Shown here piece after piece: positions 5,522 through 41,832 of a stretch of DNA of 48,199 bases. The position numbers and the translations under genes were made by a program. The notes below the pieces were generated by a model that searched no databases, was not told the DNA's origin, and saw only the letters and a list, made by a program, of their open reading frames with translations. Where the stretch lies: contig JALHOQ010000003.1 of NCBI GenBank assembly GCA_022842925.1, forward strand, positions 1-48,199. Direction: 5' to 3'. Every line of letters begins with the position of its first letter. Within the stretch, counting starts at the first letter, position 1. The stretch is from Bdellovibrionales bacterium. Its GTDB lineage: Bacteria; Bdellovibrionota; Bdellovibrionia; Bdellovibrionales; UBA1609.

Positions 5522-7609
5522 ATGAATCCATGGTTGAAAAATATATCCATTGCCCAGATCGCCAGCGGGCTGCTTGTGCCGATCGGCGCGGCCCAGGCAG
5601 GTCCTGCAAACCCGCCCACCCCTCCTCCCGAATGCGAAGCCGTCTTGGTCGCAAGCTGGCTCCCCAATCTTCCCCGGCTTACCGAGCCCGGGTTTTTGCG
5701 CCAGCGCCTGGCGACGTCGAAAGCGGACCTCAAAACAGCCGTACGAGAAATCCTCGAACTCGACAAAAACCAGCGAACCTTTACCAACACGGTTCTGCGC
5801 CTTGAAGACGCCCGCGCCCAGTACTTAGAAAAAATCATCTACTACCTCGCCGTCGCCTCCACGGTCGTTCCCGGGGATAGCCAACAGGAACTGCAAAAGA
5901 TTCAAGTCGAAGCATTCGATGCGCTCAATGAGTTGGCCTTAAACCACGAACTCTACCTGGCGACTCAAGACCAAAAGCCCGAGAATCCGGCCCAGCAAGC
6001 TTTGCTGAAAGAGTACAACGAGATGTTCCGCGAAAACGGCGCGACCCTGATTGAGGCCAGCCGCAGGAGGATTCAAAAGCTGCAAACGGAGATGTCCGAA
6101 TTGCAAGTGGCCTATCTGAACAATCTAAAAAAAGAAATTCTGATCTCCTTGCACAAAGATGAATTAACGGGAGTCGATCTCACCCCACTCAAACCAACCG
6201 CCGAGGGACTTTACCAGGTCGCTGCACAAAGTTCCGATTCCGTACGCCGACTGCTCACCACAGCCACTAGCGAAGAAACCCGTAAGAAGATCTTTCTCGC
6301 TTATCGCTCGCGCGCGCCTAAAAACAGTGCGATCCTGATCGACTACGTCAACAAGGCCGGAGAAATCGCCAGTCTCCTCGGCAAAGACAACACGCTCGAT
6401 TCGATGATCTCGCCTGAATCTTTGGCCCGTAACCGTCATGAGGTCGCACGGGTGATCAGTGAATTACGCACGCACATGCAACCAGGACTCACCGCCAAGC
6501 GTGAAGCCATGCAAGCCTTAAAAGCCGCCACTGGCTCGACTAAGCCCTTGGCCCCTTGGGACGTATTCTACTTTGAAGCCCAGCTGGAGAAGCAAGAAGC
6601 TGCTGCAAAAACAGACGAACTCGCCGGTATTGAAAAGCACTTTCCCGCCATCCCCACCATGGAGCGGACGCTCCATGTGTTTGCCCGTTTGCTTTCTCTT
6701 CAAGTCTTGGAACGAAAAGACCTAGTCGGATGGACTCCGGAGGTGCGAGCGTTTGAAGTTCGAAAGCTGGATGGAGCGCCTGTGGGTCTCTTGTACCTCG
6801 ATCCGCATTCACGACCAGAGAAAGATCCCAACACCGCGTTTGTGTCCAGGCTATCACCGCCGGTGGCGAATCGGCATGCGCCCGCGGTAGCGGTCGTGTT
6901 CAACATGGGGCCGAAGGAAGAAGCGGCCTCCAAATATCTCGAAATCTCGAAGGTCGGCACCCTGGTTCATGAATTCGGTCATGCTTTCCACGCACTTTTA
7001 GCCAAGGCCGACTACGTCTCGACCTGGGGCTACAATCGGACGACGGACTTTGTCGAAATTCCGTCTAATTTTGGCGAGCTGCTTTTAACGGATCCCAACA
7101 CTTTGACGGCGATTGCGGATGGCGGTCTCACCCGAGCACAGGCGGAGGCGGTGGCGCGTGAGCTATCCGGAACTCCGCGAGTCAGCCCGACCCATTTACA
7201 CAACACCTTCTTTTTGGCCTGGCTCGATCAGCTCTTGTTCGACCGAGCGACTGGCCCGTCGACGCTAACCCCGGCGCAGTTGCATCGCCTTTATCGACAG
7301 GCCCATTTCGATTTCTACGGCTTTGAGACTGATCCAGGTGATCGCTTTTTCGATTCGTTTTCACATTTGGTCGTTGGTTATGGCGGCAACTACTATTCCT
7401 ACTTCTGGTCTAAGATGGCGGCCATTCATATTTGGGATCGGATGTCGGCGTTGGGCGGCTTTCACTCACCTCAGGCCCGCGCCCAATATGTGAGCGAGGT
7501 GCTGGAGCCGACGACGGCCGTTCACGCTAAGCAGGCGCTCGAAAGCTTCTTAGGCACGCCGATGAGCCCCGTCCCCTACCTGCGCCGGTTGGGTTTGGCG
7601 TCGGAGTAA
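5522..7609 (+). CDS. exported M3-family zinc oligopeptidase (thimet/Dcp/oligopeptidase A-like)
   Basis: 695 aa. HExxH in the typical M3 context GTLVHEFGHAFHALLA. Length and C-terminal catalytic region are typical of M3. N-terminal signal peptide ...GLLVPIGAAQA followed by PPECEAVLV. Confidence 0.85.
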   Translation: MNPWLKNISIAQIASGLLVPIGAAQAGPANPPTPPPECEAVLVASWLPNLPRLTEPGFLRQRLATSKADLKTAVREILELDKNQRTFTNTVLRLEDARAQYLEKIIYYLAVASTVVPGDSQQELQKIQVEAFDALNELALNHELYLATQDQKPENPAQQALLKEYNEMFRENGATLIEASRRRIQKLQTEMSELQVAYLNNLKKEILISLHKDELTGVDLTPLKPTAEGLYQVAAQSSDSVRRLLTTATSEETRKKIFLAYRSRAPKNSAILIDYVNKAGEIASLLGKDNTLDSMISPESLARNRHEVARVISELRTHMQPGLTAKREAMQALKAATGSTKPLAPWDVFYFEAQLEKQEAAAKTDELAGIEKHFPAIPTMERTLHVFARLLSLQVLERKDLVGWTPEVRAFEVRKLDGAPVGLLYLDPHSRPEKDPNTAFVSRLSPPVANRHAPAVAVVFNMGPKEEAASKYLEISKVGTLVHEFGHAFHALLAKADYVSTWGYNRTTDFVEIPSNFGELLLTDPNTLTAIADGGLTRAQAEAVARELSGTPRVSPTHLHNTFFLAWLDQLLFDRATGPSTLTPAQLHRLYRQAHFDFYGFETDPGDRFFDSFSHLVVGYGGNYYSYFWSKMAAIHIWDRMSALGGFHSPQARAQYVSEVLEPTTAVHAKQALESFLGTPMSPVPYLRRLGLASE

Positions 7610-7637
7610 TCGCGCCGCGCTGGGGCTCGCGGCGGAT

Positions 7638-7655
7638 CGGCCCGGGCCGAGTTCG
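7638..7655. repeat. REP-like palindrome (GC-type)
   Basis: CGGCCCGGGCCGAGTTCG, 29 nt after the M3 peptidase stop. Confidence 0.6.
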
Positions 7656-7775: not shown

Positions 7776-9029
7776 TTGATTCCGGGCCGAAGAAAATCCA
7801 TGGTTGCCGCTTTTTTAAGTGCCTTTGTGGTGCCTTTACAGGCGGCGGTGGCCACACCGGAGCTGACTCGCTCATGTCAAGAACATCTGCTGAGTGCGGT
7901 TGAGAACAAAAATCTTGTGGTTGATCTGGGCATGGGAATTTTGAGTGTGGAATCCTATGACTCCGAAACAGACAAAGCGATGGTTCGATTTAAAGACTTG
8001 CATCGAACCTACCGTCCGGAAAAGGGGCGCACCAAAAAAGCGGGAATGTATTCTCAGGCGCTATTTGAGGTTGGCCAAGCCTCTCAACGAATTCTAGCGG
8101 AGATGGGCCATCCTGATTCCGTGAAGTTAGTGCATGAGCGAACCCAAAAGCTTTTAGGACTTAAGAGATCCGGGCTATTTTTTGCCCAAGTGGGTCTTAC
8201 CGCACGCCTAAATGCCAGTGAACTTTGGGCCAACGTCGTTTTGTTCCCCGCCATCGAGCGAGTGAATTTACAAAGGCAACAGCAGGGTGCGCCTTTGATC
8301 AAAAGGCATAATTTTTTAATGGAGCATTTTATTTCAAACCCCGATGCCAACAGTCCAGAGGCCGTGGATATGGTGTCGGTATTGCGCGAAATTTATTTGG
8401 CGACGGGTGAGAACTTAGTGCGAAGTGGCCTTCTTCGAGACTATAGTCAGGGTTATCACAGAAATTGGCGCCGCTCGGGAGAGTCTGAGGGCAACAGGGG
8501 TACCCTGAGAGTCGTGCAGCCGACCAAGCGAAGTCATGTTGAGTTTATTCCACAAGACATCGATCATTACGTGCGCTCATTTCTTTGGGCCAGGTCCGAT
8601 AAATTGTTTGGATTGGAGTCGATATCGCAAACTCTCCCCCAGACCGTTGAATCGCACCAGCAGGTGAGCGACGTCTTAGACTTCTATCGCCTAAATCGGA
8701 TTGTGACATTAGATGTGGGTTACGTTGTCCCTGAGTTTATGACTCGAGTGAAAACGTTGTTGGTTCAGTCGGTAGACAAAAAATCCGAATGGGTGCCTGA
8801 CGCTTTTGCCCAATCGACAAAGTGGCGAAGAATTTATGAGGTGGCCGGAACTCTGAAAATTGCGCAACCTGATTTAGTCCATGGGCAAATCATTCTGCTG
8901 GTGAGATCTCCCTCGACCTCAGATTATCGTCACGCAGAAATGCTACGCGCTTTGTATGATCTAGGCGCGGTGAGGGTCCTCCAAATTGTGCTGGATGAAA
9001 AAGAAACCTCATCCGCGCCGGTTAAATGA
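7776..9029 (+). CDS. exported hypothetical protein (417 aa)
   Basis: TTG start 8 nt after AGGAGA. Signal peptide ...AAFLSAFVVPLQA followed by TRSCQEHLL. No known domain. Confidence 0.65.
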   Translation: MIPGRRKSMVAAFLSAFVVPLQAAVATPELTRSCQEHLLSAVENKNLVVDLGMGILSVESYDSETDKAMVRFKDLHRTYRPEKGRTKKAGMYSQALFEVGQASQRILAEMGHPDSVKLVHERTQKLLGLKRSGLFFAQVGLTARLNASELWANVVLFPAIERVNLQRQQQGAPLIKRHNFLMEHFISNPDANSPEAVDMVSVLREIYLATGENLVRSGLLRDYSQGYHRNWRRSGESEGNRGTLRVVQPTKRSHVEFIPQDIDHYVRSFLWARSDKLFGLESISQTLPQTVESHQQVSDVLDFYRLNRIVTLDVGYVVPEFMTRVKTLLVQSVDKKSEWVPDAFAQSTKWRRIYEVAGTLKIAQPDLVHGQIILLVRSPSTSDYRHAEMLRALYDLGAVRVLQIVLDEKETSSAPVK

Positions 9030-9654: not shown

Positions 9655-10368
9655 TCAGTTTTTAATGGACCGGAAGGATTTTACGAGGTGTGAAGCTTGT
9701 TCAGCAGATAATTTGCGCTGATGAATGAGAAACTGAACGGAAATTTCTTGAGCCTCAAGGGTTAAAGGATCTTTGAGGCTTCTTGAAATGCCGGCAACTG
9801 CCTGTAACCACCGTCCATAAAGAAGTGCAAGCTCTTCCAGAGTAAGGAACTGGCTCTCCTGTTTTGAGGTGGATGACCGTCCGATGCCAGCGTCATGTTC
9901 CCAGTATTCACTTCTAAAACGCCACTTTCGCGAGTCTTTTATCTTCGGATTGAAGACTACATAGTGCGAAACTTCAGAGCGAAAAATCGAGCTTCCACCG
10001 TGACTCAGGTACAGTTCTTCGCGAGTCTGAATCTTTCCTGATTCAAGCAGAGCGCGCTGGTCGTCTCTATGTAGCTCTAGCCGAGCCAATAGGCCTTCTC
10101 GATCATCTTGATGCTGCCGTTCCCACCAATAGACAGACTCTGCGCGCGTGCCCAATGCTGATTTTAGAAACCTCAAATAGGACTCGATGACCGTTATCCC
10201 AATACGGAACTCCATTTTGGCATCCTGGTCGTTGGCCTCCACCTTCTGGGTCGCAACTCCCAAAAGGCGCTCGCAGAGCCCACCAAACCAACTGGACTTT
10301 GAAGCTGCCGAAGCTGAGTAGCTAAACAACATCGTAGAAATTACAAGAACGAGTTTAATAAAGGCCAC
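9655..10368 (-). CDS. exported hypothetical protein (237 aa)
   Basis: GTG start preceded by ACAGGA. Signal peptide ...LVISTMLFSYSASA followed by GGLCERLLG. Confidence 0.6.
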   Translation of the reverse strand: MAFIKLVLVISTMLFSYSASAASKSSWFGGLCERLLGVATQKVEANDQDAKMEFRIGITVIESYLRFLKSALGTRAESVYWWERQHQDDREGLLARLELHRDDQRALLESGKIQTREELYLSHGGSSIFRSEVSHYVVFNPKIKDSRKWRFRSEYWEHDAGIGRSSTSKQESQFLTLEELALLYGRWLQAVAGISRSLKDPLTLEAQEISVQFLIHQRKLSAEQASHLVKSFRSIKN

Positions 10369-10449: not shown

Positions 10450-12312
10450 TCAAAACGACATCGTCGAAATAATTCTTCCGTCACGATCGAACTCAACCAC
10501 AGCGAGAGAATAGCGGCGAATGTAGTCGGCCAGGGACATGCGCTGGCCGTTGACCTCGATATCGCGCCAGCTCATGTAGATATGGGCCTGGCCCATTTCG
10601 CGGGTCGACGATTCAAAGGTGATGGGAAAAAGTTTGTCGTGGCGATCGAAGCGGCGAAAGAACTCCTCCGGGTTGATCGGCCGAGGATCCCGAACAACGC
10701 CGCCGAAGTGGTCGACAAATCCTTTCGGCAAAATTACGGCGTAGTGACGATTGAGCGCCGGGAAACTTCTTTGCGTGCGCAGGCCCTGGAACTCCAGCGC
10801 GCCTTTGTGGCCGACCCCATAGACCCGTTGCGTATTGTCGAGGAAAACTCGCACACTCCCCTCTTTTTGCCGAACTCGAAAATCGGGAAAGCCTTTGGCG
10901 GTTTGGGAAAACGCGACGTCGACTTCGGAGACTGTGTCTGAGGTGAAGGCCGTTTTGCGGGCCAGAACATCGAAGTCCACTTCGACTTCCTCCATAGTCC
11001 GGTAACCCTGGAGCGAAAGGGGCCGAGAATAGGGCAACGGAATTGGACGAAGTGCGATCGCAGCCGGCCGCCACGAAATCAGGTCGACCAGCCAGGCTTC
11101 AAGAAACTCAGGCGGCGTGAAATTATATCGATCGGCTTTGGCTGCGTTTCGAAATTTATAAAAGGCCTCAAGCCTTTCCTTCACTGTTCCAGAAGCTTCG
11201 AGAAGCTTAAATAGCGCAGCGACATTGCGACGAAAGCGGATGCGATCTTCCTCTGGCAGTTCACGGTCCACTCCGCTTAAATACGCCTGAAGCGCTGCGA
11301 CCTCGCGCTGAACCATTTGCACTTCTGAGGCTCTCGATTCCTTTAGGATCTGATCAATTATGGCGGGCGTAGGTCCGGCGTAATGGAAGTCGTTTGCAGG
11401 CGGAGCCGACCATTCCAAAAAACTTTCGGGTGCCGCAATGGAATTCGTCGGCTGCCATGTTTCGATTCCCACGAACTGATCGAGAATCTCGCCCCGCTGG
11501 CGCTCGACTTCGTTGCGATATTGAATATTCCTATAACGGCGTTCGCGTACGGCCGCCCTTTCCCTCTTCCGGCGTTCGCGGGTTTCAGTTCGAACAGGCG
11601 CAAAAACTGAATGGTCGGCGTCTGGCCTCAAGACCACGGCCATATTGGAGAGCCGCGGATTATGGCCGCTTTCGAAATAAGCCGGATAGTTGATGACCAT
11701 TTCGCCCGAGTCGGGCCGGAATGAAAGGGTTTGAATCGAAAAGAAAAATCGCCCGAATCCCTCCTCGCGAATCTCATCTTCGAAGACGTCCAGTTTCCCG
11801 AACTCGCCCAAATTGACCTCAAAAAAGTGCCTAGACTTGATGCGGAACCTTTTCGCTAAAGCGGCCCGCACTTGATCCCGCCGGTCGACAAAGAGGTCCA
11901 CCGCCCGCTGCCGGTCAGCGCGCGGAATTTCGGATCTCTGCAAGTAGCGCTGAATCGTCGTACTCCCATCCCGGATAGGATAGGTCGCCTGTCCCTTTTC
12001 ATCGACGGTGACTAACTCGACCTGAACTCCCGGCACCGGGTGAGCTTCGAGAGTTTGACGAAGGATCTCAAGACCACGGATGTGCGACGCCAGGGCAGGA
12101 CCGGATTTGTTCAGCACTTTAATTTTATAGACGAGATAATCGGCGCATTCGGGCGAATGCGCGCGGGCGTCAGCCGGAAATAGACCTGAAACGGCGAAAA
12201 TCGCCGCGAACAAATTGAATAGAAAGTAATCAGGAGTGAAAAATCCCACCCTTGAGAACGCCGTGCCTGCTTTAAAGCGCATTGAGGTTTCCTTAAGCAT
12301 TCCCCGCGCCAT
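10450..12312 (-). CDS. exported hypothetical protein (620 aa; start may be the Met at 12282)
   Basis: Long ORF. Hydrophobic N-terminal segment FNLFAAIFAVSGLFPADARA followed by HSPECADYLV. Internal Arg-rich stretch RERRKRERAAVRERRYR. No known domain. Confidence 0.65.
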   Translation of the reverse strand: MARGMLKETSMRFKAGTAFSRVGFFTPDYFLFNLFAAIFAVSGLFPADARAHSPECADYLVYKIKVLNKSGPALASHIRGLEILRQTLEAHPVPGVQVELVTVDEKGQATYPIRDGSTTIQRYLQRSEIPRADRQRAVDLFVDRRDQVRAALAKRFRIKSRHFFEVNLGEFGKLDVFEDEIREEGFGRFFFSIQTLSFRPDSGEMVINYPAYFESGHNPRLSNMAVVLRPDADHSVFAPVRTETRERRKRERAAVRERRYRNIQYRNEVERQRGEILDQFVGIETWQPTNSIAAPESFLEWSAPPANDFHYAGPTPAIIDQILKESRASEVQMVQREVAALQAYLSGVDRELPEEDRIRFRRNVAALFKLLEASGTVKERLEAFYKFRNAAKADRYNFTPPEFLEAWLVDLISWRPAAIALRPIPLPYSRPLSLQGYRTMEEVEVDFDVLARKTAFTSDTVSEVDVAFSQTAKGFPDFRVRQKEGSVRVFLDNTQRVYGVGHKGALEFQGLRTQRSFPALNRHYAVILPKGFVDHFGGVVRDPRPINPEEFFRRFDRHDKLFPITFESSTREMGQAHIYMSWRDIEVNGQRMSLADYIRRYSLAVVEFDRDGRIISTMSF

Positions 12313-16157: not shown

Positions 16158-17642
16158 CTAAGGAGTGCGTCTCTGAATGGAGAAAAATGAAACCGTCCCA
16201 CGTTTCTTATTGAAGAGGCTGAAAAAACGGCCGTCTTCAGAAAAGCTATAGATTCCAAGGCCCCCACCGATCTTCGCGATCGGCGTCAAGGATTGAAAGG
16301 GCTCAACGATCTTAAGATCGTCCTCGTCCATCAGAGCGAGAAGCGGAAAATCCATTAGACCATTCACCCAGTGTGGCCTCGGCACCTTCCAAAGCTTCTC
16401 GACCAGGGGGATGTCCCGGAAGTCCTGACCGACAAAAGGTTCGTACACGCGAAAGGATGAACCATCGGCCCGGATTCTGCTTCTGCACCGCACTCCCACC
16501 ACGAAACGACCCGACGGGGTCCATACCGCCTCTAGTGGTTCCGCCGCATCTGCATCATCGACGTATATAGTCGGGAATTTCTGAGTTCCAGCTGAGTCGA
16601 GAATCACAAACGGCGCCGGACCTCCCGCTGTTCCAAATTTTTGAACTGCAACAGCGACTTCACCGGATGGACCTTTGACCGCTTGGAATGCGGCAACACC
16701 ATCTGCCAGTTTCGTCGCCGACAGATAGCCTTCACGATTGCGTTTGAACAATGAAATTTCCAAGACTTCGGTCAACGCAATAAACTCTGTTTCCCCTATT
16801 GCATTAACCCAAGCTGATCGAGTCCGAATGGAATGGCAAACATACAGAGAAATACCGGAGAGCTTCGGATCGGGCGAAATCGTCACATTGCCAGACGGAC
16901 CTCTCAGGCATCCTAGTTTCTCTCCTAAGAAATAAATCTCAGATTGACCATGCGCGGACGACTGACCCAAACTTATTAGGGTCGGTTGCGGCGCACTGAA
17001 ATTCACGAATTGTGCAACGTTGTCTTCGAGCACAAATCCTTGCAGCTCGCCCTTTGGGGTGAAACTTATCGACCAAGCCTTGAGTTCGCGCACGGGTGGA
17101 TTTGCCAGCTGGCGGACATCCGGCTTTTTAAGTGAATTTGCGCCAGCGGCAACCTCGGCCGCAGTCCACCTGTAAATATGAGCCGCACTGCCCACCATCA
17201 TGGCGAAACTCACACCACCGTCCGACTCACTTCGGATTGCAGTAGCCAAATTGTTTTCCAGCGATGCAGAGACCGACATCAGTTGCTGAGGGGCGATCAC
17301 CATTTGAGTGTCTAATCGAGCCGTTTCCTGTATCCCAAGCGAATGACCCAACGCGATCAACCACTGCTCAATCGCCTCGCGCGAACGATCCAGGGGCTTT
17401 GACTCCAGATAAAGAGAGAGGCCCTTCAGTACTGCGATCTGATCCGTCGTCCGAGCCCGGTTCAAAACCGGCGAATAACTATGACCATCGAGCCAAGCGC
17501 GGACCGAGGCTGTCGACACCAAACCTTCACGATAGGCCTTCTCTAGCAACCGGACCGAAGGCGGCAGGAGGGGAGTTTCATCGCAGTTGGCGTGACAAAT
17601 CGAGCTGATGAAGAGTGACCACAATAAAACCCAGCGGATCAT
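16158..17642 (-). CDS. exported hypothetical protein (494 aa), family with 19417-20937
   Basis: ATG at 17642 preceded by AAGGA. Signal peptide MIRWVLLWSLFISSICHA followed by NCDETPLL. The C-terminus is repeated at 14138-14346. Confidence 0.7.
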   Translation of the reverse strand: MIRWVLLWSLFISSICHANCDETPLLPPSVRLLEKAYREGLVSTASVRAWLDGHSYSPVLNRARTTDQIAVLKGLSLYLESKPLDRSREAIEQWLIALGHSLGIQETARLDTQMVIAPQQLMSVSASLENNLATAIRSESDGGVSFAMMVGSAAHIYRWTAAEVAAGANSLKKPDVRQLANPPVRELKAWSISFTPKGELQGFVLEDNVAQFVNFSAPQPTLISLGQSSAHGQSEIYFLGEKLGCLRGPSGNVTISPDPKLSGISLYVCHSIRTRSAWVNAIGETEFIALTEVLEISLFKRNREGYLSATKLADGVAAFQAVKGPSGEVAVAVQKFGTAGGPAPFVILDSAGTQKFPTIYVDDADAAEPLEAVWTPSGRFVVGVRCRSRIRADGSSFRVYEPFVGQDFRDIPLVEKLWKVPRPHWVNGLMDFPLLALMDEDDLKIVEPFQSLTPIAKIGGGLGIYSFSEDGRFFSLFNKKRGTVSFFSIQRRTP

Positions 17643-17904
17643 GGCATTCCTTCTATCTTCGCGCCTTCGCATGCGACGAAGATCGGCGCCTCAGAGCCGG
17701 GCTCCGTCACCGCAAAAAGATTGAAAACGCCTACAGCATAAATAAGCGCGAATATATGGACTTGAATCATTCTTGGGCCTAGAGCTGCAATCGAGCCGCC
17801 AACGCGTTGTGAGCCTCCGCCAGCTAGCAGCCCTTGAGCGCCTTTCACTCGAATCCACTTTAAGCGGTTTAGGCCCTGGACCTAAGCCTGCCTCTTTTAA
17901 AAGA

Positions 17905-19416: not shown

Positions 19417-20937
19417 TTGATTCTGCGGGCTTATACGCTTCTTAGAAAGCCTTTTTTCGGCGTAACCGGAGTCCAAATTCGGCTCTTTTTGGCCACGCTA
19501 CCTCTTCTGCTTCTCGCAGTGGGGGCCGCGGCAACGTCGGATTGCGAAGAGGCCCTCCACGGCGCGCCACTTGAGCTGTCGCGGCTGGTGAAGGTGGCCT
19601 TACAGAGCGGCATCCTGAGCGCCGACCGGCTGCGGACGGAGCTGGAGTCGGACACTCCCCGTTTCGAGCTCAAAGGCAAGCCGCTCACGTCTACGTCGCT
19701 TCCGGTTGTGCAGGGGTTAAAACGGGCGGCGGCTAAAGTGAACTCCGCGCAATGGGCTATGTCACGTGGGCTGTTCGGTCAACTTCTCACCGATTTGCAC
19801 GATCAATCTCAGAAAAGCGCTGAAGCGCGCATCGAGACCGCGCCGCTTTTGCATCCGAAGCGCGTTCTTAGTTTTGAAACCAACGAGCGTTATGTCAACG
19901 GACTGCGCCTGACTGTAACTCCGGACGAGCGCATTTGGGTCTCTTACATGGGAGAATCCATTCATCTGCATCCGGCGGACGAGCCCGCGGCCGATCAACC
20001 TCAGAAGCTGGGTTCTTCGGATGTGTTTGCCCCGCTGGACAGCCTGCTCACGGTGGAGCCCGATGGTCGCCCGCTCCTCCATGTGATGGCCACCCGCGAT
20101 CACAAGCCCGCATGGTGGCGCTTCACCGAAGTGTTGCTGTCGCGCTGGACCATGGCCTTTGGCGAGAAGCCGAAGCAGCTGGCTGAGATTATAAGTCCCA
20201 TGCGCAAAAACAGTTGGGGTAATCCCAAAATGTTCAAGCGCGGAGAACGGTTCTTTTTCAGTTATTTTTCTTTTACCAAACAGAACGGCCGCGAGCACAT
20301 GGTGTTTGAACTTCCAGCGCCGGGGCAACCCGTAAAAAACTATAGCTTACTCAACCAATCCGAGACTGGCTTCGTCCCCACGGCCGATGGCATTTACCGT
20401 CATGCCATGAGACCTCTGGCATTCGAGTTCAATGGAAAGCTTTTTTCCGGTTACGCGCATAAAAAAGAAGTCGTTCTTGAAAGTGAAGGCCGGACTCAGA
20501 TATTCGAGATGCCCTACGAGGTGCACCACGAATTTACAGTAAACTTGGATAATGGCGAACCTGTCATCGCGGTTAATCTGCATTCGAACTCGGAATGGTT
20601 TATCGGACTTATAAAACCATTCGCCAGCTCGGATCAGGTCCGCGTCTACAGTTCTATAATTGGCTGGCCACAATTTAAACAGTGGGTTCGGCTACCCAAT
20701 GGCGGGCGCTTGCTCAGTCTTTCGGTGCGGAACTCCGGAAAAACCCAGACCGTCTTCTTCGATGAGCGGATCGGGTTCAGCCAGCCCATTGAGATGAAAG
20801 GGAATGGTAAGTTGATTTTCGCGACCGGCCAGAAGAACGTTTACTTCCTAATGCACGATGAGGAGTCCACCCTCGCAAGAGTCTCCAACCCCACGGTCGA
20901 TATCTACAGTCTGTTCAATGAGGTCGAACGCCGGTGA
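19417..20937 (+). CDS. exported hypothetical protein (506 aa), distant paralogue of 16158-17642
   Basis: TTG start after AGGAGA. Hydrophobic LFLATLPLLLLAVGAAA followed by TSDCEEALH. Similar size and N-terminal architecture to 16158-17642. Confidence 0.65.
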   Translation: MILRAYTLLRKPFFGVTGVQIRLFLATLPLLLLAVGAAATSDCEEALHGAPLELSRLVKVALQSGILSADRLRTELESDTPRFELKGKPLTSTSLPVVQGLKRAAAKVNSAQWAMSRGLFGQLLTDLHDQSQKSAEARIETAPLLHPKRVLSFETNERYVNGLRLTVTPDERIWVSYMGESIHLHPADEPAADQPQKLGSSDVFAPLDSLLTVEPDGRPLLHVMATRDHKPAWWRFTEVLLSRWTMAFGEKPKQLAEIISPMRKNSWGNPKMFKRGERFFFSYFSFTKQNGREHMVFELPAPGQPVKNYSLLNQSETGFVPTADGIYRHAMRPLAFEFNGKLFSGYAHKKEVVLESEGRTQIFEMPYEVHHEFTVNLDNGEPVIAVNLHSNSEWFIGLIKPFASSDQVRVYSSIIGWPQFKQWVRLPNGGRLLSLSVRNSGKTQTVFFDERIGFSQPIEMKGNGKLIFATGQKNVYFLMHDEESTLARVSNPTVDIYSLFNEVERR

Positions 20938-21553: not shown

Positions 21554-21756
21554 TAATATTCCTCCGAATTGGTGCTCCGAATTGCAATTTAGGCTCCATC
21601 GTATAGGAGAACACGCAAGCTCCAACTGTTTACCCGAAACGAATATGGCGGCCTTTAGGCGCTATATTCGTCTCAGAGGGTGCCCATATTGGGCCGAAAA
21701 AGGTTGATTGGATCGGTTTCTCTGATACGTTCCTCCAAAATTTATGGGGGTAAACC

Positions 21757-33657: not shown

Positions 33658-33700
33658 CGCGATCTTGAGCACAGCCTTTGCAAACTCACGACTTCATTAT

Positions 33701-35365
33701 ATGAACTCAAAAGTACGCACGAGCCTCGGCCTTAAGGCCGTAATTATTTCTCTTTCAGTCTCATTTTGTTCACCAGTCTATGCTTCTTGTGAAGACGCCC
33801 TCGGCGCACCCCGCACGACTTTGCACTTTCCGCGGGAGCTGAAGATTGACGAAAAATGGATGCCGTTGGCCATTACGACGCATAGACAAGGGCCTATCGT
33901 AGCAAAGCTGGGCAGTCTCTTTGCCAAGGCCGAAACCGTGAGTGGGTTTTGGTCGGAAGTCGCACTCGCCGTGGTGGAGCCCGTCGAAGCGCACTACCCG
34001 TTTCCTTTAACCGAGCGTCTGTTGATGAACCTGGGACTGGCGGTCACGCCATCTGAGCAAGAGCGGGTCGAGGCCCTGGTCCCCAAGCTGATCTTGCATT
34101 TCGCGGAAGTCTTGGATGAGGAGGAAATCGTGCTTCTCGCCCACCTCCTACGTGGGCGGCCGGTGAATACCAAGACCTCGGCGGAGCGCGTTCCCCTTAA
34201 ACTGAGCGACTTTGAAGAATCCGTCGCAACCAATCCTTTAATTACGATTCCCTTTGATCGCTGGCTCTCAATTCAAAAATTTATCGTCTCCCATCCGGTT
34301 TATCGCGAATACATGGCAAGCCTGCTTGCAAGCGACGGCTTTGTTGCGGCCATCATGCGGGCCGCCGAATACCCGTTGGACGAGATTGACGACGAGACCA
34401 TTCGCACCACGCGGGAGAGCCTTGGCGCAGCGGACCGACTGACTCGTAAAAAGACAAAAGGCATAAAGGTTTCAGCAGAAATAAACACCTACACCGTCGT
34501 TACCATGTCATTTGTCGGTCTGGTTCAGGAGGCCATGAGGAAACCGGAACTGCGGCCCAAGCTTGAGGCCGATCCCCGAGCCATACTGGAAGAGCTCGAG
34601 GAAATATTTATTCCCGTGTTTAAAGTGAGATCCGACATCGAAACGTACATTCGAGCCGTTGATTTCTTTATGTGGGATACACCAGTACCGGAATCGGCCG
34701 AGTCAATGCGGCAGGTGGCCCTCGATGCCGCTCGCAGTCTGATTCTCGATTTCAAAGGCGAGTTGTCACGTTTTAAAGCGAATGCAACTCTTGAAGAGAA
34801 ACGGGCGCAAGCCGCCTCACGAGTGACCTCCATCGGCGAAATCAAAACGTTGAACCCGTTTGTGGTGGCGCCCTTGGCAAAACAGCGGGTCAAGACTCGC
34901 GGCACCGCCCGACCTGCGGAGGCGGCCGGGCCCCTCGAAGCGGTAAAGCAAAACGATCTCTTCGAACTGACTCACTTCAGTCGGGACGCAGGCCCCTTTG
35001 TTATTGAAGACAAAGTCTACCAGTTTCAGTTCATTCGAAACGCGGCGGCCGGGCCGCAAAGCGTTCGCCTTCAGCCGGAAGCTCTGGCCGAACTGCGTGC
35101 TCTGCCTGAGCGGGAGGCTCGGCGTCTGCTGGGAGCCTTCGTGATGGGCTATACCGATCGCTCGGCGCGCGCCACGAGCGGCGTAAAACGCCTTTACCGA
35201 AACGGACAAAACCAAACCGCGCTTTATGAGGCCCGCCCTGGCCACTCCAATCAGCGGTTGATTTTGGCCCGGCCTGAAAGCGGAGAGTGGCGCATACTCG
35301 GCGTGGTCGAAAAGGCCCATTTCGACAAAGCTGTCGAGCGGCGCTTTCAGCGGCAGCAGCTTTAA
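33701..35365 (+). CDS. exported protein (554 aa) with C-terminal RelE/ParE-like toxin fold
   Basis: ATG at 33701. Signal peptide ...AVIISLSVSFCSPVYA followed by SCEDALG. The last ~95 aa (LAELRALPEREARRLLGAFVMGY...VKRLYRNGQNQTALYEARPGHSNQRLILARPESGEWRILGVVEKAHFD) follow the RelE/ParE pattern. Confidence 0.6.
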   Translation: MNSKVRTSLGLKAVIISLSVSFCSPVYASCEDALGAPRTTLHFPRELKIDEKWMPLAITTHRQGPIVAKLGSLFAKAETVSGFWSEVALAVVEPVEAHYPFPLTERLLMNLGLAVTPSEQERVEALVPKLILHFAEVLDEEEIVLLAHLLRGRPVNTKTSAERVPLKLSDFEESVATNPLITIPFDRWLSIQKFIVSHPVYREYMASLLASDGFVAAIMRAAEYPLDEIDDETIRTTRESLGAADRLTRKKTKGIKVSAEINTYTVVTMSFVGLVQEAMRKPELRPKLEADPRAILEELEEIFIPVFKVRSDIETYIRAVDFFMWDTPVPESAESMRQVALDAARSLILDFKGELSRFKANATLEEKRAQAASRVTSIGEIKTLNPFVVAPLAKQRVKTRGTARPAEAAGPLEAVKQNDLFELTHFSRDAGPFVIEDKVYQFQFIRNAAAGPQSVRLQPEALAELRALPEREARRLLGAFVMGYTDRSARATSGVKRLYRNGQNQTALYEARPGHSNQRLILARPESGEWRILGVVEKAHFDKAVERRFQRQQL

Positions 35366-38388: not shown

Positions 38389-41151
38389 TCACGGCTGCAT
38401 ATTTAGAAAGCCATCGAGAATCACCATTTGCGGTGACTTCGGTTTTAGATAGCGCGCTTCCTTCTCAAACTCCTCCGACTCGAAAAAACCTTCATCGAAG
38501 GCCATGTTGAGTCGGCGAATCAGATCCTTAGAAACGGCCTCTTGTGGTTTCAGACCGGGATCTCGAGCCGAAAGCAATCGGTATCGGTGGAACCAACGGT
38601 CATAGTCCTTATAGGTCTTCAGATGATCGCCCTCGGAGCCGACGATCTTCAAAGCGCCCTTCTTAAGATGATCTACAAGTAACTTTTGGGCATCCTTAGA
38701 CAGGAAGTACAAAAGCTGCGTCAGATTGAGCAACCCCACTTCCGCCAGTGCGCTGCGAACAATTTTATCCGGATCCTCTCCAGCAGTGCGAAGCCGATCG
38801 TCCAAAGCGACCGCCAAACCCCTATAGTCCCGTCCATCATAAGACTTGTTCTGATTTGCCAGCTCGGTGGCCCATGCCCTCGCCGGCTCCTCCAACAATT
38901 CAAGAAAGTGCTGTTGGTGACCGTAGACATCGTGAATGGCAGATAGCCTCAATCCGCTTTGCAAGCGTGACACCATCTCTCTGTAATAAAACGAGGACTT
39001 TATAAAGTAGCTCGGCCACTTCCATAAGTGATGAAAATGGACGAGTTCCCTACTCAGAAACTCTACATTAATAAAGAGCTGATTGAGACGGAGAGCATTT
39101 ACCCTGTAATCACTCGCTCCTGTCGACTGCAATACAGACTTTAACACCGTTCGCAGAAGCTCCTCCTTAGCCTGCCGGGAAAGTTTTTCGTAGAAATCCT
39201 CTCCATTGCGTCCCCACCAGTTCTGCACGAGTCGACGTAGGGAACCCTCCGGTCCCTTCACAGCGCGCGGAAAACGCTTCGAAGTGGCAACAAATTCTTC
39301 ATACTGGCGGATGACGTTCTCCTCTGAGAATCCGTCCGATGAAGTGCGAAACTTGAGTAGCTCGGCCACAATGTCGTCGAGACCCGAGCCCCTCAGGCCT
39401 TCGCCATACAAATCGAGATCCGACTTCTGACGAGCTTGTTGCGTAACAAGGGAGGACCCTTGGAGGGCTTGAAATACCTGCAGCGCCTCTCGAACGGTCG
39501 ACTCATCGATTTTCATGGCCGTGAGCACGGAGACAACCGTCTTATCGTTTGTCAGGCGCAAAATCCGGCCGAGGCGCTGTAAAAACTGCCGAGGCCCCAC
39601 GTAACGGTTGAGGTCAATGTAAAGACTCAACCCCGGAACATCGATCCCCTCATCGAGTTGCTTCACTGTCACCAGATGATTGATTTTGCCGCTGCGCAAG
39701 TCTTGGCGAATCGAGATCTGTTCTTTAGGCGGCAAGCCTGAATGGAGTACGGCGAAGCGGAAATTTGCATCTTCGTTGCGGCTTGAAAGCGTTCGAAACA
39801 GAGCTTCCGCCTCCGCTTGAGTGGAAACCGAAGTAAAGCCAAACTTATGTTGTTTGGCATGTCGCATGACTTTTGCCGCCACAACGTCCATCTTTTCAGG
39901 CGCCAAAATATAGCGATCAAAATCCAGTCCCAAGGATCGAGTGCTTACAAACAGATCGTCAAACCCTCGGTTCAGAGTCAGTAATTGAATAAAGCCAATC
40001 GGGGATAGATCCCCTTGGGCCAAGGCTTGGTTAAGTTGATCCACAATGATCTGAAAAGAATAATCGACTGTCCGGCCTGGCTTACTAAAACTAGCCGCCG
40101 TGTCGACATAGGCCCAGAAGACGTTATCTTCAAAAAGATTCACAATAGATGTCTGCCGGTGAATCGGTGTGGCCGAGGTACCGTAAACGAAGCGGTCCTC
40201 GCCGCGGCTGTGAATTAGCCCGCTGACGATCTGCTTGGCATAATGAGCGCCCGCATGATGAACCTCGTCATAGCCGAAATATCCCACTCGTAGAAAAAAA
40301 TCATTTTGCTGATCGGGAGATAAAGAGAAAAAGGCATCACGAAGGCTCTGAATAGTAGTGACGACCAATATCGGCAAACCTTTGGGGCCATTTTTTTTGG
40401 CATCGTCCAACGCCTTTTGCAGTTCTGCTGGCTTCCCGTCGCCCCATATTCGCAAATCTACTGAAAGCCCCTTAATGCTTTGAATCTCCTGGACCAGTTG
40501 GGTCACGAGAAAATTGGAGTCGGCGACCACAAAATGGACTTTTTGTTTTGTAATCTGCAAAAATCGATCAAGTGAGACTTTCAAGATCTCGGTTTTGCCG
40601 GTACCCGTTGGCGACACGAACAAGAACGACCTCCGTCGCTCCTCCAACGACCATACTATCGATTTGACTGCCTCCTTTTGCGCCGGCCTGAGGACTTTCT
40701 TGCCAGTTACTTTGGCCTGCGGATGGGCGGCGTGACCGACCAACAATCGCTTGATCAATCCCTTTCTTTGCTCGGGCTTGAGTTCCCTCCACTTAAACCC
40801 TGTCGGGATTGAGAGTAGGCGCTCTCCTTCATATTGAATCTCAGGCTCCGTTAAATCGGGTCGACTCGACCACGCAACCCGAATTGAGGGTTGATCGGGA
40901 ATTAAAATCTCGATCTGCCCAGGAGCCAGTTCACGCCACTTGAATTCGGACTTAATCACGGGTTTTACAACATTCAGAAGAAAGTAACGTAACTGTGAGG
41001 CCGAGACTGGCGACGCCGGGCTAACCACCAACGCGTCGACACAGGATTGTGAGTTGTGGGCAAAACAGTTTGCACCAGACAGCAACATGAGGGCTGAACA
41101 AAACCGTCTAAAGTATCTCCAAAAGGAGACCATTCCGAGAATATTTTGCAC
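38389..41151 (-). CDS. SF2 DEVH-box helicase (ResIII + Helicase_C type) with N-terminal Sec-type signal peptide
   Basis: 920 aa. Motif I VSPTGTGKTE, II YDEVHH, III GTSATP, V QLDEGIDVPG, VI QRLGRILR. GTG start after AGGAAG. N-terminus FWRYFRRFCSALMLLSGANCFA followed by HNSQSCVDALV. Confidence 0.8.
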   Translation of the reverse strand: MQNILGMVSFWRYFRRFCSALMLLSGANCFAHNSQSCVDALVVSPASPVSASQLRYFLLNVVKPVIKSEFKWRELAPGQIEILIPDQPSIRVAWSSRPDLTEPEIQYEGERLLSIPTGFKWRELKPEQRKGLIKRLLVGHAAHPQAKVTGKKVLRPAQKEAVKSIVWSLEERRRSFLFVSPTGTGKTEILKVSLDRFLQITKQKVHFVVADSNFLVTQLVQEIQSIKGLSVDLRIWGDGKPAELQKALDDAKKNGPKGLPILVVTTIQSLRDAFFSLSPDQQNDFFLRVGYFGYDEVHHAGAHYAKQIVSGLIHSRGEDRFVYGTSATPIHRQTSIVNLFEDNVFWAYVDTAASFSKPGRTVDYSFQIIVDQLNQALAQGDLSPIGFIQLLTLNRGFDDLFVSTRSLGLDFDRYILAPEKMDVVAAKVMRHAKQHKFGFTSVSTQAEAEALFRTLSSRNEDANFRFAVLHSGLPPKEQISIRQDLRSGKINHLVTVKQLDEGIDVPGLSLYIDLNRYVGPRQFLQRLGRILRLTNDKTVVSVLTAMKIDESTVREALQVFQALQGSSLVTQQARQKSDLDLYGEGLRGSGLDDIVAELLKFRTSSDGFSEENVIRQYEEFVATSKRFPRAVKGPEGSLRRLVQNWWGRNGEDFYEKLSRQAKEELLRTVLKSVLQSTGASDYRVNALRLNQLFINVEFLSRELVHFHHLWKWPSYFIKSSFYYREMVSRLQSGLRLSAIHDVYGHQQHFLELLEEPARAWATELANQNKSYDGRDYRGLAVALDDRLRTAGEDPDKIVRSALAEVGLLNLTQLLYFLSKDAQKLLVDHLKKGALKIVGSEGDHLKTYKDYDRWFHRYRLLSARDPGLKPQEAVSKDLIRRLNMAFDEGFFESEEFEKEARYLKPKSPQMVILDGFLNMQP

Positions 41152-41232
41152 GCCCTGACTTCCTAGCTCGACTTCAATGGTTAGGGTTGTCGAAGTAGCA
41201 AAACGGCGGCCATGGAGATCAGGCGGCGGAGT

Positions 41233-41832
41233 TCAGCGCGGCTTTTGAAACTCCACCGCCACGCGCTCGAAGGCTCCCGGCGAACCCTTTGTATCGAGGA
41301 TAAAAACATGCGTGTAGCCATGAAGAACGGCCTGGCGTCCGGTCCAAGTCTTGCGGGCCGCTTCTTCGAGCGGAAGTCTTTGCGAGAGCCCATTGAACTG
41401 CGCGAGATTGTCGGAATCGCCTTCCCAATTGCCGAGCACCGCTTGAACCCGCGAGCCGAAGTAATCCAAGAAGAGTTTAAAAATGAGGTGACCGTCGAAG
41501 CCCGCCACCCGGCCGCCCCTGGGACCTTTCACATAAAGCCCCATCATCATCAAGTCGCGATCGAGCATTCGGGCCCAGGCATGGGGATAGCGCGTCTTAT
41601 GCTCGATGGTGATCCGGTCGTGGGTGGCGTCGATGGTAAAGCCAGCTCGGTTCAAGCCGATCATCGTGCGCGTGAGGCTGTTGCCCATCAGCCATTCGCA
41701 ATCCGCGGGCGGCTTATCGCCGCCCGCCTGAGCCTGGCTGAGCGGGCCTAGGCTCAAGCCGAGAGCGAGCAAAATGTACGCAAGAATGTAATTTGGCGCT
41801 ATTCGGCGCGGCGGGGGTGTGGTCAGGAGCAT
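41233..41832 (-). CDS. exported hypothetical protein (199 aa)
   Basis: Signal peptide ...ILAYILLALGLSLGPLSQAQA followed by PPADCEWLMG. Preferred over the antisense ORF 41212-41751, which has no features. Confidence 0.6.
   Translation of the reverse strand: MLLTTPPPRRIAPNYILAYILLALGLSLGPLSQAQAGGDKPPADCEWLMGNSLTRTMIGLNRAGFTIDATHDRITIEHKTRYPHAWARMLDRDLMMMGLYVKGPRGGRVAGFDGHLIFKLFLDYFGSRVQAVLGNWEGDSDNLAQFNGLSQRLPLEEAARKTWTGRQAVLHGYTHVFILDTKGSPGAFERVAVEFQKPR

What the first reader, a model, noticed from the sequence alone, without database searches (positions are those of the whole stretch)
5522..41832. Shared post-signal-peptide module Cys-(acidic)-x-x-Leu on at least 11 unrelated exported proteins: candidate sorting or maturation tag for an effector set
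The junction between the predicted signal peptide (AxA-type end) and the mature protein repeats the same pattern. The slash below marks my predicted cleavage site.
- 5522: AAQA/GPANPPTPPPECEAVLV
- 7776: PLQA/AVATPELTRSCQEHLL
- 9655: SASA/ASKSSWFGGLCERLLG
- 10450: DARA/HSPECADYLV
- 16158: ICHA/NCDETPLL
- 19417: GAAA/TSDCEEALH
- 23137: PSFA/TAETPRSVCDALQ
- 23659: AAMA/KWSNNDCEDRLL
- 33701: PVYA/SCEDALG
- 38389: NCFA/HNSQSCVDALV
- 41233: QAQA/GGDKPPADCEWLMG

In each case the first Cys of the mature chain lies about 2-13 residues after the predicted cleavage site. It is usually followed by D/E, with Leu about four residues later. The rest of these proteins are not related to each other. Residues at -3 to -1 do not fit a lipobox, so these are not lipoproteins.

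The cargo list includes proteins whose activities need a cytoplasm: an ATP-dependent helicase, a sigma-like DNA/RNAP binder and a RelE-like fold. That is expected for effectors delivered into another cell, not for periplasmic housekeeping proteins. No sorting signal of this form is known to me.
Basis: partly seen in the sequence, partly recalled or inferred. Interest (0 to 1): 0.8.

Follow-up and report, generated by a model that had tools for sequence, protein, structure and literature searches.

The report
Single-cysteine tag after signal peptides
A group of unrelated exported proteins from an uncultured relative of the predatory Bdellovibrio bacteria, including a helicase and a sigma-factor-like protein, carry one cysteine just after the signal peptide and usually no other, which looks like an undescribed sorting or tethering tag.

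Summary
All 11 N-termini read as quoted, and each has an AxA-type signal-peptidase-I site. A Cys follows 1-13 residues later, then two variable (often acidic) residues and two hydrophobic ones (core C-x-x-hydrophobic-Leu).

- **Enrichment.** The motif occurs in 10/36 signal-peptide-like ORFs here, against 2/236 in control loci from unrelated taxa (p=3e-8).
- **Independence.** The 11 proteins are not paralogues, and there is no DNA-level conservation at the motif.
- **Single cysteine.** In 9 of 11 the motif Cys is the only cysteine of the mature chain: 4,397 residues with none, about 33 expected. Most other exported proteins in the window have even Cys counts.
- **Conservation.** The Cys is kept in orthologues of three families at 21-88% identity while the spacer varies.
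- **Lineage.** The nearest relatives are all Bdellovibrionota MAGs, and their loci show the same feature.
- **Not a known tag.** There is no lipobox, no Pfam or NCBIfam model covers the motif, and six literature searches found no description.

Best reading: a lineage-specific thiol-based tag on Sec-exported proteins, several with cytoplasm-type domains. It probably acts through a mixed disulfide or another covalent link. The chemistry, the partner and the "effector" role are inferred, not shown.

The parts
5522..5650 (+). Tag module of the M3 peptidase (ORF 5522-7609): signal peptide ...IGAAQA, spacer GPANPPTPPPE, then Cys (5633-5635)-EAVLV. This is the only Cys of the protein.
   Evidence: The 88%-identical orthologue P0002 keeps ...SPE-C-EAVLV with the spacer shortened from 11 to 3 residues.
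7776..7892 (+). Tag module of the ORFan 7776-9029: ...VVPLQA / AVATPELTRS-C-QEHLL. Only Cys.
   Evidence: No Pfam, NCBIfam or PDB hit.
10258..10368 (-). Tag module of the ORFan 9655-10368: ...SYSASA / ASKSSWFGGL-C-ERLLG. Only Cys.
12130..12312 (-). Tag module of the ORFan 10450-12312: ...PADARA / HSPE-C-ADYLV. Only Cys in 620 aa.
   Evidence: No significant PDB hit.
17568..17672 (-). Tag module of the ORFan 16158-17672: ...SSICHA / N-C-DETPLL. The mature chain has 4 Cys.
   Evidence: A search of 5.8 billion proteins finds only itself.
19417..19560 (+). Tag module of the ORFan 19417-20937: ...AVGAAA / TSD-C-EEALH. Only Cys.
   Evidence: No significant PDB hit.
23137..23235 (+). Tag module of the small protein 23137-23514: ...SPSFA / TAETPRSV-C-DALQ. 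The mature chain has 6 Cys, so this is the least typical member.
23626..23742 (+). Tag module of the sigma-70-like protein (ORF 23626-25395, likely start 23659): ...PLAAMA / KWSNND-C-EDRLL. Only Cys of the mature chain.
   Evidence: Sigma70_r4 and TIGR02937 hits. The Cys is one of 10 invariant columns across 7 homologues at 21-33% identity. It is the only Cys in 3 of the 4 full-length homologues and in the window protein.
33665..33805 (+). Tag module of the ORFan 33665-35365 (likely start 33701): ...SPVYA / S-C-EDALG. Only Cys after the signal peptide. The VYAS|C context is borderline lipobox-like.
   Evidence: No PDB hit.
41026..41151 (-). Tag module of the SF2 helicase (ORF 38389-41151): ...GANCFA / HNSQS-C-VDALV. 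No further Cys in the remaining 883 residues.
   Evidence: ResIII, DEAD and Helicase_C hits. Ten homologues at 27-38% identity all have a signal peptide, a spacer and a Cys. Their total Cys counts are mostly 1 or 3 in 900-1,200 aa.
41683..41832 (-). Tag module of the 199-aa ORFan 41233-41832, directly upstream of the helicase: ...SQAQA / GGDKPPAD-C-EWLMG. Only Cys.
21443..21625 (-). It has 2 Cys.
   Evidence: A weak candidate, because it lacks the acidic residues.
3901..3933 (+). Possible C-terminal copy of the same peptide in the exported protein 3136-3933: ...LQE-C-ERALGEKGQ*. This is the only Cys outside its signal peptide.
   Evidence: It may be a coincidence. If real, the tag is a portable short linear motif rather than a helix cap of the domain.

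Best explanation
This is a lineage-specific tag after the signal peptide, found in the window organism and its relatives in Bdellovibrionota.

**Proposed sequence of events.**
1. The proteins are exported by Sec and cut by signal peptidase I at a normal AxA site.
2. A variable, unconserved spacer of 1-13 residues follows.
3. Next comes a single cysteine that starts a short hydrophobic-faced turn or helix (C-x-x-hydrophobic-Leu, often with acidic residues at +1/+2).
4. The rest of the chain has been purged of cysteines, so this thiol is the only one.
5. Other exported proteins in the window tend to have even Cys counts, which suggests a disulfide-forming envelope. In such an envelope a lone thiol should not stay free.
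6. I therefore propose that it makes a covalent link. The most likely form is a mixed disulfide to a shared carrier or tether; the alternative is an S-linked modification.
7. That link would sort, retain or deliver a family-independent set of exported proteins, several of which carry cytoplasm-type activities (SF2 helicase, sigma-70-like protein, M3 oligopeptidase).
8. Such cargo fits proteins sent by a predatory bacterium into prey, where a reducing cytoplasm would release them.

**Shown:** the motif, its enrichment, its conservation, the unique-Cys rule, the absence of a lipobox and the Bdellovibrionota affinity.

**Inferred:** signal-peptide cleavage, the thiol chemistry, the existence of a partner and a prey-directed role.
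For: 1. **Enrichment.** 10/36 SP-like ORFs carry the motif, against 2/236 in unrelated-taxa controls (p=2.7e-8). First Cys 2-20 residues after the h-core: 17/35 against 29/221 (p=5.8e-6). The same excess holds in Bdellovibrionota loci after removing two syntenic loci (L010, L012) and L004, which carries the M3 orthologue: 19/50 against 31/221, using a 2-22-residue window (p=2e-4).
2. **Unrelated carriers.** There is no paralogy among the 11 and no DNA-level conservation.
3. **Unique Cys.** In 9/11 the motif Cys is the only Cys. That is 4,397 downstream residues with 0 Cys where 33 are expected (P about 3e-15). Among non-motif SP proteins that contain Cys, 14 have even counts and 6 odd. Single-Cys proteins number 9/11 among motif proteins and 4/20 among the others (p=0.002).
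4. **Conservation across three families.**
 - M3: the 88% orthologue keeps the Cys while the spacer shrinks. A 25% homologue has SP...T-C-SALL. A homologue without a signal peptide has 14 Cys, against 1-2 in the exported ones.
 - Helicase: 10/10 homologues at 27-38% identity have the signal peptide, spacer and Cys.
 - Sigma-like: the Cys is one of 10 invariant columns at 21-33% identity.
5. **Shape of the conservation.** Nothing is conserved upstream of the Cys. Position +4 is hydrophobic in 28/29 instances and +3 in 22/29.
6. **Lineage.** The six best genome matches to the helicase family are all Bdellovibrionota MAGs, and their neighbouring genes carry the tag too.
7. **Cargo.** ResIII/Helicase_C, sigma-70 and Peptidase_M3 domains.
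8. **Structure models.** In both AlphaFold models the tag segment is not confidently packed on the fold (pLDDT below 50 for residues 1-54 and 1-36).
Against: - There is no direct evidence for cleavage, for any modification or for a partner.
- No candidate partner or processing gene was found in the window or shared between related loci.
- Signal peptides were called with my own heuristic, not SignalP.
- The even-Cys bias of the other exported proteins is only marginal on this small sample (14 against 6, p=0.06).
- Two of the 11 (16158 and 23137) have several other Cys.
- Only about 170 kb of Bdellovibrionota-like sequence was sampled, and it was chosen through two tagged families. Genome-wide frequency is therefore unknown.
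- In B. bacteriovorus a plain Sec signal peptide is enough to release a reporter into the supernatant (PMC12622784), so an extra tag is not obviously required for secretion.
- The AlphaFold models are shallow-MSA models of modest quality.
Confidence: 0.45

Rival explanations
1. These are non-canonical lipoproteins. The unique Cys is S-lipidated, either by Lgt with relaxed specificity or by another acyltransferase. That would anchor the proteins to a membrane, to outer-membrane vesicles or to the predator surface. The acidic residue after the Cys would act like a Lol-avoidance or surface-export signal.
For: - A single Cys close to the signal peptide, with the rest of the chain Cys-free or with even Cys counts, is what true lipoproteins look like.
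- Asp at +2 is the E. coli Lol-avoidance signal, and acidic residues after the Cys drive surface export of Bacteroidota lipoproteins (PMC5080379).
- Lipidation of proteins cleaved by signal peptidase I has a precedent in the Aat/CexE system (PMC7943197).
- 33665 (VYAS|C) is borderline lipobox-like.
Against: - There is no conservation at -3 to -1. The -1 residues are E, S, L, E, N, D, V, D, S, S, D.
- The Cys lies 4-17 residues beyond the hydrophobic core, after a good AxA site.
- Canonical lipoproteins with proper lipoboxes coexist in the same window and loci (31244 LTA|C; 17 in the Bdellovibrionota loci).
- The Cys is followed directly by structured hydrophobic residues rather than a flexible tether.
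- The flexible spacer lies on the wrong (N-terminal) side.
Confidence: 0.2
2. The Cys is an export aid rather than a sorting tag. An N-proximal lone Cys would be captured by DsbA as it emerges from SecYEG. The resulting mixed disulfide would act as a ratchet or holdase that helps export large, fast-folding cytoplasm-type domains. All other Cys would be removed to avoid misoxidation.
For: - The carriers are large cytoplasm-type proteins recruited to export.
- The exported M3 versions have 1-2 Cys, against 14 in the homologue without a signal peptide.
- The position right after the signal peptide is the first part to emerge.
- No dedicated partner gene was found.
Against: - Cys depletion alone would be enough to avoid misoxidation. 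This idea does not explain why exactly one Cys is retained and kept invariant at 21-33% identity.
- It does not explain the conserved hydrophobic pair at +3/+4.
- It does not explain the possible C-terminal copy.
- No such DsbA ratchet motif is known to me.
Confidence: 0.1
3. There is no shared function. The pattern would be a by-product of helix N-cap preferences, composition, start-codon choice or chance in a small sample.
For: - Acidic residues at N1-N3 and a hydrophobic residue at N4 are generic helix-start features.
- Signal peptides were predicted heuristically.
- Only one window and a few related loci were examined.
Against: - Cys is not a generic N-cap residue.
- The enrichment over controls is strong (p about 1e-6 to 1e-8).
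- The unique-Cys rule has P about 3e-15.
- The Cys is invariant in three unrelated families.
- The gene caller of the source collection independently calls the 920-aa helicase, and its starts for the sigma-like protein (578 aa) and for 16158 (494 aa) both retain the signal peptide.
Confidence: 0.05

Closest known systems
Bacterial lipoproteins (lipobox; Lgt, LspA, Lnt)
   Same: A signal peptide is followed by one invariant Cys at the start of the mature protein. The remaining chain is Cys-free or has even Cys counts. Residues just after the Cys carry sorting information, such as Asp at +2.
   Different: There is no lipobox. A canonical signal-peptidase-I site precedes the Cys, followed by a spacer of 1-13 unconserved residues. 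The Cys opens a hydrophobic helix rather than a flexible tether. True lipoproteins coexist in the same loci.
Bacteroidota lipoprotein export signal (LES; PMC5080379)
   Same: It is a short, phylum-specific motif right after the Cys, rich in acidic residues, that decides the final location of many unrelated proteins.
   Different: LES acts on a lipidated +1 Cys produced from a lipobox. Here the lipobox is absent, the phylum differs, and the conserved part is the hydrophobic pair at +3/+4.
Aat/Cex system: glycine-acylated CexE and Aap (PMC7943197)
   Same: It is a precedent for proteins cut by signal peptidase I that are then covalently modified near the N-terminus and passed to a dedicated outer-membrane export route.
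   Different: The modified residue there is the N-terminal Gly and the substrate family is small. Here the residue is an internal Cys on many unrelated, large proteins, and no AatD-like gene was seen in the window.
C-terminal sorting tags with dedicated sortases (PEP-CTERM/exosortase, GlyGly-CTERM/rhombosortase, MYXO-CTERM/myxosortase; PMC11980579)
   Same: They are lineage-restricted short tags present on dozens of unrelated exported proteins in one genome. MYXO-CTERM also has an invariant Cys.
   Different: Those tags are C-terminal and include a transmembrane helix and a basic tail. This one is N-terminal, follows a cleavable signal peptide and has no known processing enzyme. No NCBIfam model matches.
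AB-type toxins with a single interchain disulfide (diphtheria, cholera, ricin-type); from my own knowledge
   Same: A catalytic cargo is held to a carrier or translocator by one disulfide and is released on reaching a reducing cytosol. The cargo chains are Cys-poor.
   Different: This is an analogy of mechanism only. No carrier has been identified here, and the cargoes are many and unrelated rather than one toxin.

Membership tests
Bacterial lipoprotein (Lgt/LspA substrates) | Lipobox [LVI]-[ASTVI]-[GAS]-C directly at the end of the hydrophobic region | tested here: not met
   The -1 residues are E, S, L, E, N, D, V, D, S, S, D, and nothing is conserved at -3 to -1 in 29 aligned instances. Only 33665 (VYAS|C) is borderline. 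A true lipobox is present in 31244 (LTA|C) and in 17 ORFs of the related loci.
Bacterial lipoprotein (Lgt/LspA substrates) | The Cys becomes residue +1 after signal peptidase II cleavage and is diacylglyceryl-modified | not testable with these tools
   This needs mass spectrometry, lipid labelling or globomycin. The sequence argues against it, because an AxA-type site lies 1-13 residues upstream of the Cys.
Bacteroidota lipoprotein export signal (LES) | A lipidated +1 Cys followed within a few residues by K-(D/E)2-like acidic residues, in Bacteroidota | tested here: not met
   Acidic residues follow the Cys in about 40% of instances. There is no lipobox, and the relatives are Bdellovibrionota.
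Tat signal peptides | Twin-arginine S/T-R-R-x-F-L-K motif in the n-region | tested here: not met
   None of the 11 has it. The window does contain one Tat-like signal on an untagged protein (33139, MNRRQLIQTG...).
Type IV prepilin-like signals | G | F/M-x-x-x-E cleavage and methylation motif before the hydrophobic segment | tested here: not met
   It is absent from all 11 N-termini. NCBIfam gives no prepilin-type hit.
C-terminal sortase-type tags (PEP-CTERM, GlyGly-CTERM, MYXO-CTERM, LPXTG, T9SS CTD) | A C-terminal motif plus a transmembrane helix and basic tail, or a T9SS C-terminal domain, recognised by curated HMMs | tested here: not met
   There are no Pfam or NCBIfam hits of these kinds on the tagged proteins. 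The tag is N-terminal.
Aat/Cex glycine-acylated lipoproteins | An N-terminal Gly after signal peptidase I cleavage, plus an AatD (Lnt-like) acyltransferase and AatPABC genes | tested here: inconclusive
   Only 2/11 have Gly at predicted +1 (5522 and 41233). No CN_hydrolase, Lnt-like or Aat gene turned up among the about 40 window ORFs scanned against Pfam. The rest of the genome is unavailable.
Disulfide-linked AB-type delivery (functional analogy) | A single intermolecular disulfide between cargo and carrier, reduced in the target cytosol | not testable with these tools
   Only the precondition is shown: a unique Cys in otherwise Cys-free exported chains. No carrier has been identified.

The most novel reading that the evidence does not exclude
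Bdellovibrionota would possess an undescribed cysteine-based routing system. A lone Cys at the start of a short C-x-x-hydrophobic-Leu peptide, placed after an ordinary Sec signal peptide, would couple many unrelated and otherwise cysteine-free proteins by a disulfide to a common carrier or translocator. The cargo would include helicases, sigma-factor mimics and peptidases. The carrier would deliver them across the prey's inner membrane, and the reducing prey cytoplasm would release them. That would amount to a modular, AB-toxin-like delivery route. It would make the long-open question of how these predators put proteins into the prey cytoplasm directly testable.
Probability: 0.2. Interest if true: 0.9.

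Novelty: new variant of a known kind. Interest (0 to 1): 0.72.

Why it matters
How Bdellovibrio-like predators get enzymes and regulators into the prey cytoplasm is unresolved. They lack non-flagellar type III secretion and type IV secretion (my own knowledge). This tag gives a simple sequence rule that picks out a candidate cargo set: a cleavable signal peptide, a spacer, then a unique Cys followed by x-x-hydrophobic-Leu. That set includes exported helicases and sigma-factor-like proteins, which have no obvious job in a periplasm.

The tag also offers one residue to mutate. It enables phylogenetic profiling for the missing partner, in the way PEP-CTERM led to exosortase. Even if the Cys turns out to be lipidated, that would be a lipoprotein class without a lipobox, which current predictors would miss.

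Tried and rejected
- **Genome-contig scan with the M3 peptidase alone:** no relatives found.
- **Metagenome-contig scan with the helicase alignment:** swamped by generic helicase patterns and gave no useful orthologues.
- **Homologue search for ORFan 16158:** found only itself.
- **PDB sequence searches for four ORFan carriers:** nothing significant, only weak ACE-like noise for 19417. There is no HExxH motif outside the M3 protein.
- **NCBIfam and Pfam:** no model covers the N-terminal motif.
- **Six literature searches:** no description of such a tag in Bdellovibrio or elsewhere.
- **Search for a shared partner or processing gene:** BLAST of window proteins against related loci shares only the helicase, M3, S8 and SDR proteins plus a weak Fic match.
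- **DNA-level cassette or recombination-site idea:** rejected, because the codons vary synonymously.
- **Paralogy of the N-terminal modules:** rejected.
- **AlphaFold models of the M3 and sigma-like proteins:** the tag region has low confidence, so its structural context is unresolved.
not reproduced.
- **Rfam and tRNA scans of the window:** empty.


Full report
**1. What is in the window**

The window is a whole 48,199-bp metagenomic contig. It is the longest contig carrying its proteins, and the same proteins occur on Logan assemblies of runs SRR28154522-30. GC is about 52%, and there are no tRNA or Rfam hits.

My crude gene call gives 46 ORFs. Of these, 36 have a signal-peptide-like N-terminus by a home-made heuristic. 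The heuristic requires a positive n-region, a hydrophobic core of at least 9 residues without charges, and rejects cores that are too long. SignalP was not available.

The right flank continues into core genes: ppiD, mreC, mreD, pbp2, rodA and trx. The cluster therefore sits in a chromosome.

**2.

Each has a -3/-1 site ending in Ala.

The carriers are unrelated. All-vs-all blastp at E<=1 finds nothing among them.

| Carrier | Annotation |
|---|---|
| 5522 | Peptidase_M3 |
| 23626 | sigma-70 regions 2 and 4 |
| 38389 | ResIII/DEAD/Helicase_C |
| the other eight | no Pfam or NCBIfam hit; no significant PDB hit for the four searched (7776, 10450, 19417, 33665) |

Codons around the Cys differ synonymously, so this is protein-level conservation and not a shared DNA cassette.

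**3. It is far beyond chance**

| Measure | Window | Control loci from unrelated taxa (L015-L088) | Test |
|---|---|---|---|
| First Cys 2-20 residues after the hydrophobic core, non-lipobox SP-like ORFs | 17/35 | 29/221 | Fisher p=5.8e-6 |
| Relaxed motif regex in SP-like ORFs | 10/36 | 2/236 | p=2.7e-8 |

- The control rate of 13% matches what the Cys frequency of 0.76% predicts.
- Internal Cys in window ORFs show the acidic-plus-aliphatic context in only 3/87 cases, against 9/17 for N-proximal Cys.

**4.

In 9 of the 11 proteins the motif Cys is the only cysteine of the mature chain. These include the 920-aa helicase, the 695-aa peptidase and the 620-, 589-, 566- and 506-aa proteins.

- Downstream of those nine Cys lie 4,397 residues with no Cys. 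About 33 would be expected (P about 3e-15).
- The other signal-peptide proteins of the window mostly have even Cys counts: 14 even against 6 odd. On this small sample the bias is only marginal (p=0.06).
- An even-number bias in exported proteins is the signature of a disulfide-forming envelope. That argument comes from Dutton et al., PNAS 2008, which I cite from my own knowledge.
- A lone thiol in such a compartment is not expected to stay free.

**5. The Cys is conserved in orthologues while the spacer is not**

- **M3 peptidase.**
  - The 88% orthologue P0002 keeps SPE-C-EAVLVASWLP although the Pro-rich spacer shrinks from 11 to 3 residues.
  - A 25% homologue with a signal peptide has ...ELT-C-SALL.
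  - P0006, a homologue without a signal peptide, has 14 Cys, against 1-2 in the exported ones.
  - By eye, the Cys sits where cytoplasmic M3 enzymes begin (NPLL...).
- **Helicase.** Three metagenomic and six genomic homologues at 27-38% identity all carry a signal peptide, a spacer and the Cys. Their Cys totals are mostly 1 or 3 in 900-1,200 residues, where 3 means the tag Cys plus a local C-x5-C pair.
- **Sigma-like protein.**
  - An exhaustive search of 1.84 billion representatives gave five clear homologues and one partial one.
  - In their alignment the tag Cys is one of only 10 invariant columns at 21-33% identity.
  - It is the only Cys in three of the four full-length homologues.

Over 29 aligned instances nothing upstream of the Cys is conserved. 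Position +4 is hydrophobic in 28 (Leu in 17) and +3 in 22. Acidic residues at +1/+2 occur in about 40%. Some neighbour instances in that set were picked by eye, but the 13 orthologues were not, and all have a hydrophobic or aromatic residue at +4. The core is therefore C-x-x-hydrophobic-Leu, and the 'acidic' part is a local flavour of this organism.

**6. Lineage**

A scan of one genome per GTDB species with the helicase alignment gave six strong matches. All six are Bdellovibrionota MAGs: Bacteriovoracia, Bdellovibrionales, Bdellovibrionaceae, two labelled only Bdellovibrionota, and Oligoflexia.

In those loci and in three Logan contigs, other genes next to the helicase also carry the tag:
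- L009 8409: HLDRL-C-RDLLL
- L013 2118: AGGK-C-SEYLL
- L014 4304: LAN-C-EHLL

The excess of early Cys also holds there, at 19/50 against 31/221 in controls (p=2e-4). That count uses a 2-22-residue window and leaves out the syntenic loci L010 and L012 and also L004.

The window organism itself is very poorly sampled. There are only 4-6 database relatives for the M3 and helicase proteins and none for ORFan 16158.

**7. What it is not**

- **Not a lipobox.** The -1 residues are E, S, L, E, N, D, V, D, S, S, D. The Cys lies beyond a good AxA site. True lipoproteins with proper lipoboxes sit in the same window (31244, LTA|C) and in the related loci.
- **Not a known signal or tag.** It is not a Tat signal, a prepilin signal or any curated C-terminal sorting tag.
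- **Not described in the literature searched.** Six full-text searches found no description.
- **A caveat for the sorting idea.** One toolbox paper shows that a plain Sec signal peptide is enough to release a reporter from B. bacteriovorus (PMC12622784).

**8. How it most likely works**

*Shown:* a family-independent N-proximal motif with one reactive residue, strict removal of all other Cys, conservation over deep divergence, restriction to a predatory phylum, and cargo that includes cytoplasm-type enzymes.

*Inferred:*
1. Sec export and signal-peptidase-I cleavage leave a short floppy tail, then the Cys at the start of a short hydrophobic-faced helix. AlphaFold places a short helix right after the Cys in the M3 model. 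It gives pLDDT below 50 for the whole tag region in both models, so the tag is not confidently part of the fold.
2. The thiol then makes a covalent link. I rank a mixed disulfide to a shared carrier or tether first. It explains why exactly one Cys is kept and all others removed, and why cargo meant for a reducing cytoplasm would use it.
3. S-lipidation without a lipobox comes second.
4. A DsbA-capture export aid comes third.
5. Chance or a helix-cap artefact is essentially excluded.

A possible C-terminal copy of the peptide occurs in protein 3136-3933 (...LQE-C-ERALGEKGQ*), and it is that protein's only Cys outside the signal peptide. If it is real, it favours a portable linear tag.

**9. Comparison with what is known, and novelty**

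It works most like a lipoprotein-type or sortase-type tag: a short, lineage-specific motif on many unrelated exported proteins that is centred on one Cys. It fails the defining tests for each known family. I found no model or description of it.

I file it as a new variant of a known kind (protein sorting or tethering tags). If the thiol-carrier delivery idea is right, it would be a new kind of system.

**10. Limits**

- There is no SignalP and no complete genome.
- The related loci were reached through tagged families.
- No partner has been identified.
- No experiment supports any step.

Noticed in passing
window 28688-28945 and 30006-30263: A 258-nt direct repeat at 98% identity. The 3' end of gene 29057-30247 is duplicated just upstream of the same gene, which looks like a remnant of a tandem duplication.
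   Followed up: partly
window 14159-14346 and 16171-16358: A 188-nt repeat at 91% identity. It is an orphan copy of the last 60 or so codons of tagged gene 16158-17672. It lies 2 kb away, beyond a HigB/RelE-like plus HTH pair (14423-15095) and a trypsin-like gene (15388-16047). This is reminiscent of the displaced C-terminal fragments in polymorphic-toxin loci.
   Followed up: partly
window 1970-2155 and 4042-4227: A 186-nt repeat at 88% identity covering two small ORFs that share the peptide HELRGNLTASKRYQIHWERECIDPAELARLRWVE. It may be a small mobile or regulatory gene present twice.
   Followed up: no
window 27717-28070 and 35431-35784: Two 117-aa paralogues (82% identical) with a signal peptide and a single Cys near the C-terminus (SGD-C-Q[IV]V). 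They are lone-Cys exported proteins inside the island, so they are a conceivable disulfide partner. This is pure speculation.
   Followed up: partly
window 45400-47217: An exported subtilase with a signal peptide, a fervidolysin-type prodomain and an S8 domain, plus a C-terminal PilZ (c-di-GMP-binding) domain. A PilZ domain on a secreted protease is odd. L007 encodes a 35%-identical S8 relative.
   Followed up: no
window 17773-19215; L006 6103-7074: A Fic/DOC gene without a signal peptide lies within the island. In L006 a Fic gene sits directly upstream of the helicase orthologue that carries the signal peptide.
   Followed up: no
window 23626-25395 and homologues P0013-P0017: This is an exported sigma-70-like family. 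It has regions 2 and 4, then a C-terminal part of about 240 residues that AlphaFold models as very long helices. A secreted sigma-factor mimic would be unusual in itself.
   Followed up: partly
whole window: 36 of 46 ORFs (78%) have signal-peptide-like N-termini. The figure is 24% in control loci from unrelated taxa and 63% in the Bdellovibrionota loci under the same heuristic. The island is almost entirely 'secretome'.
   Followed up: partly
window 33139-33504: A small protein with a Tat-like signal (MNRRQLIQTGALFGATMALPKLARA) and no Cys.
   Followed up: no
literature (PMC2797640): In B. bacteriovorus HD100 a helicase gene (Bd1370) is up-regulated at prey entry, together with exported endonucleases. 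It could be the cultured-organism counterpart of the helicase family found here. Its N-terminus was not available to check.
   Followed up: no
L014 16201-16887: A signal-peptide protein from an Oligoflexia MAG ends in ...AAQG-C-EGDL*. This is a second possible C-terminal occurrence of a Cys-acidic-x-x-Leu peptide.
   Followed up: no
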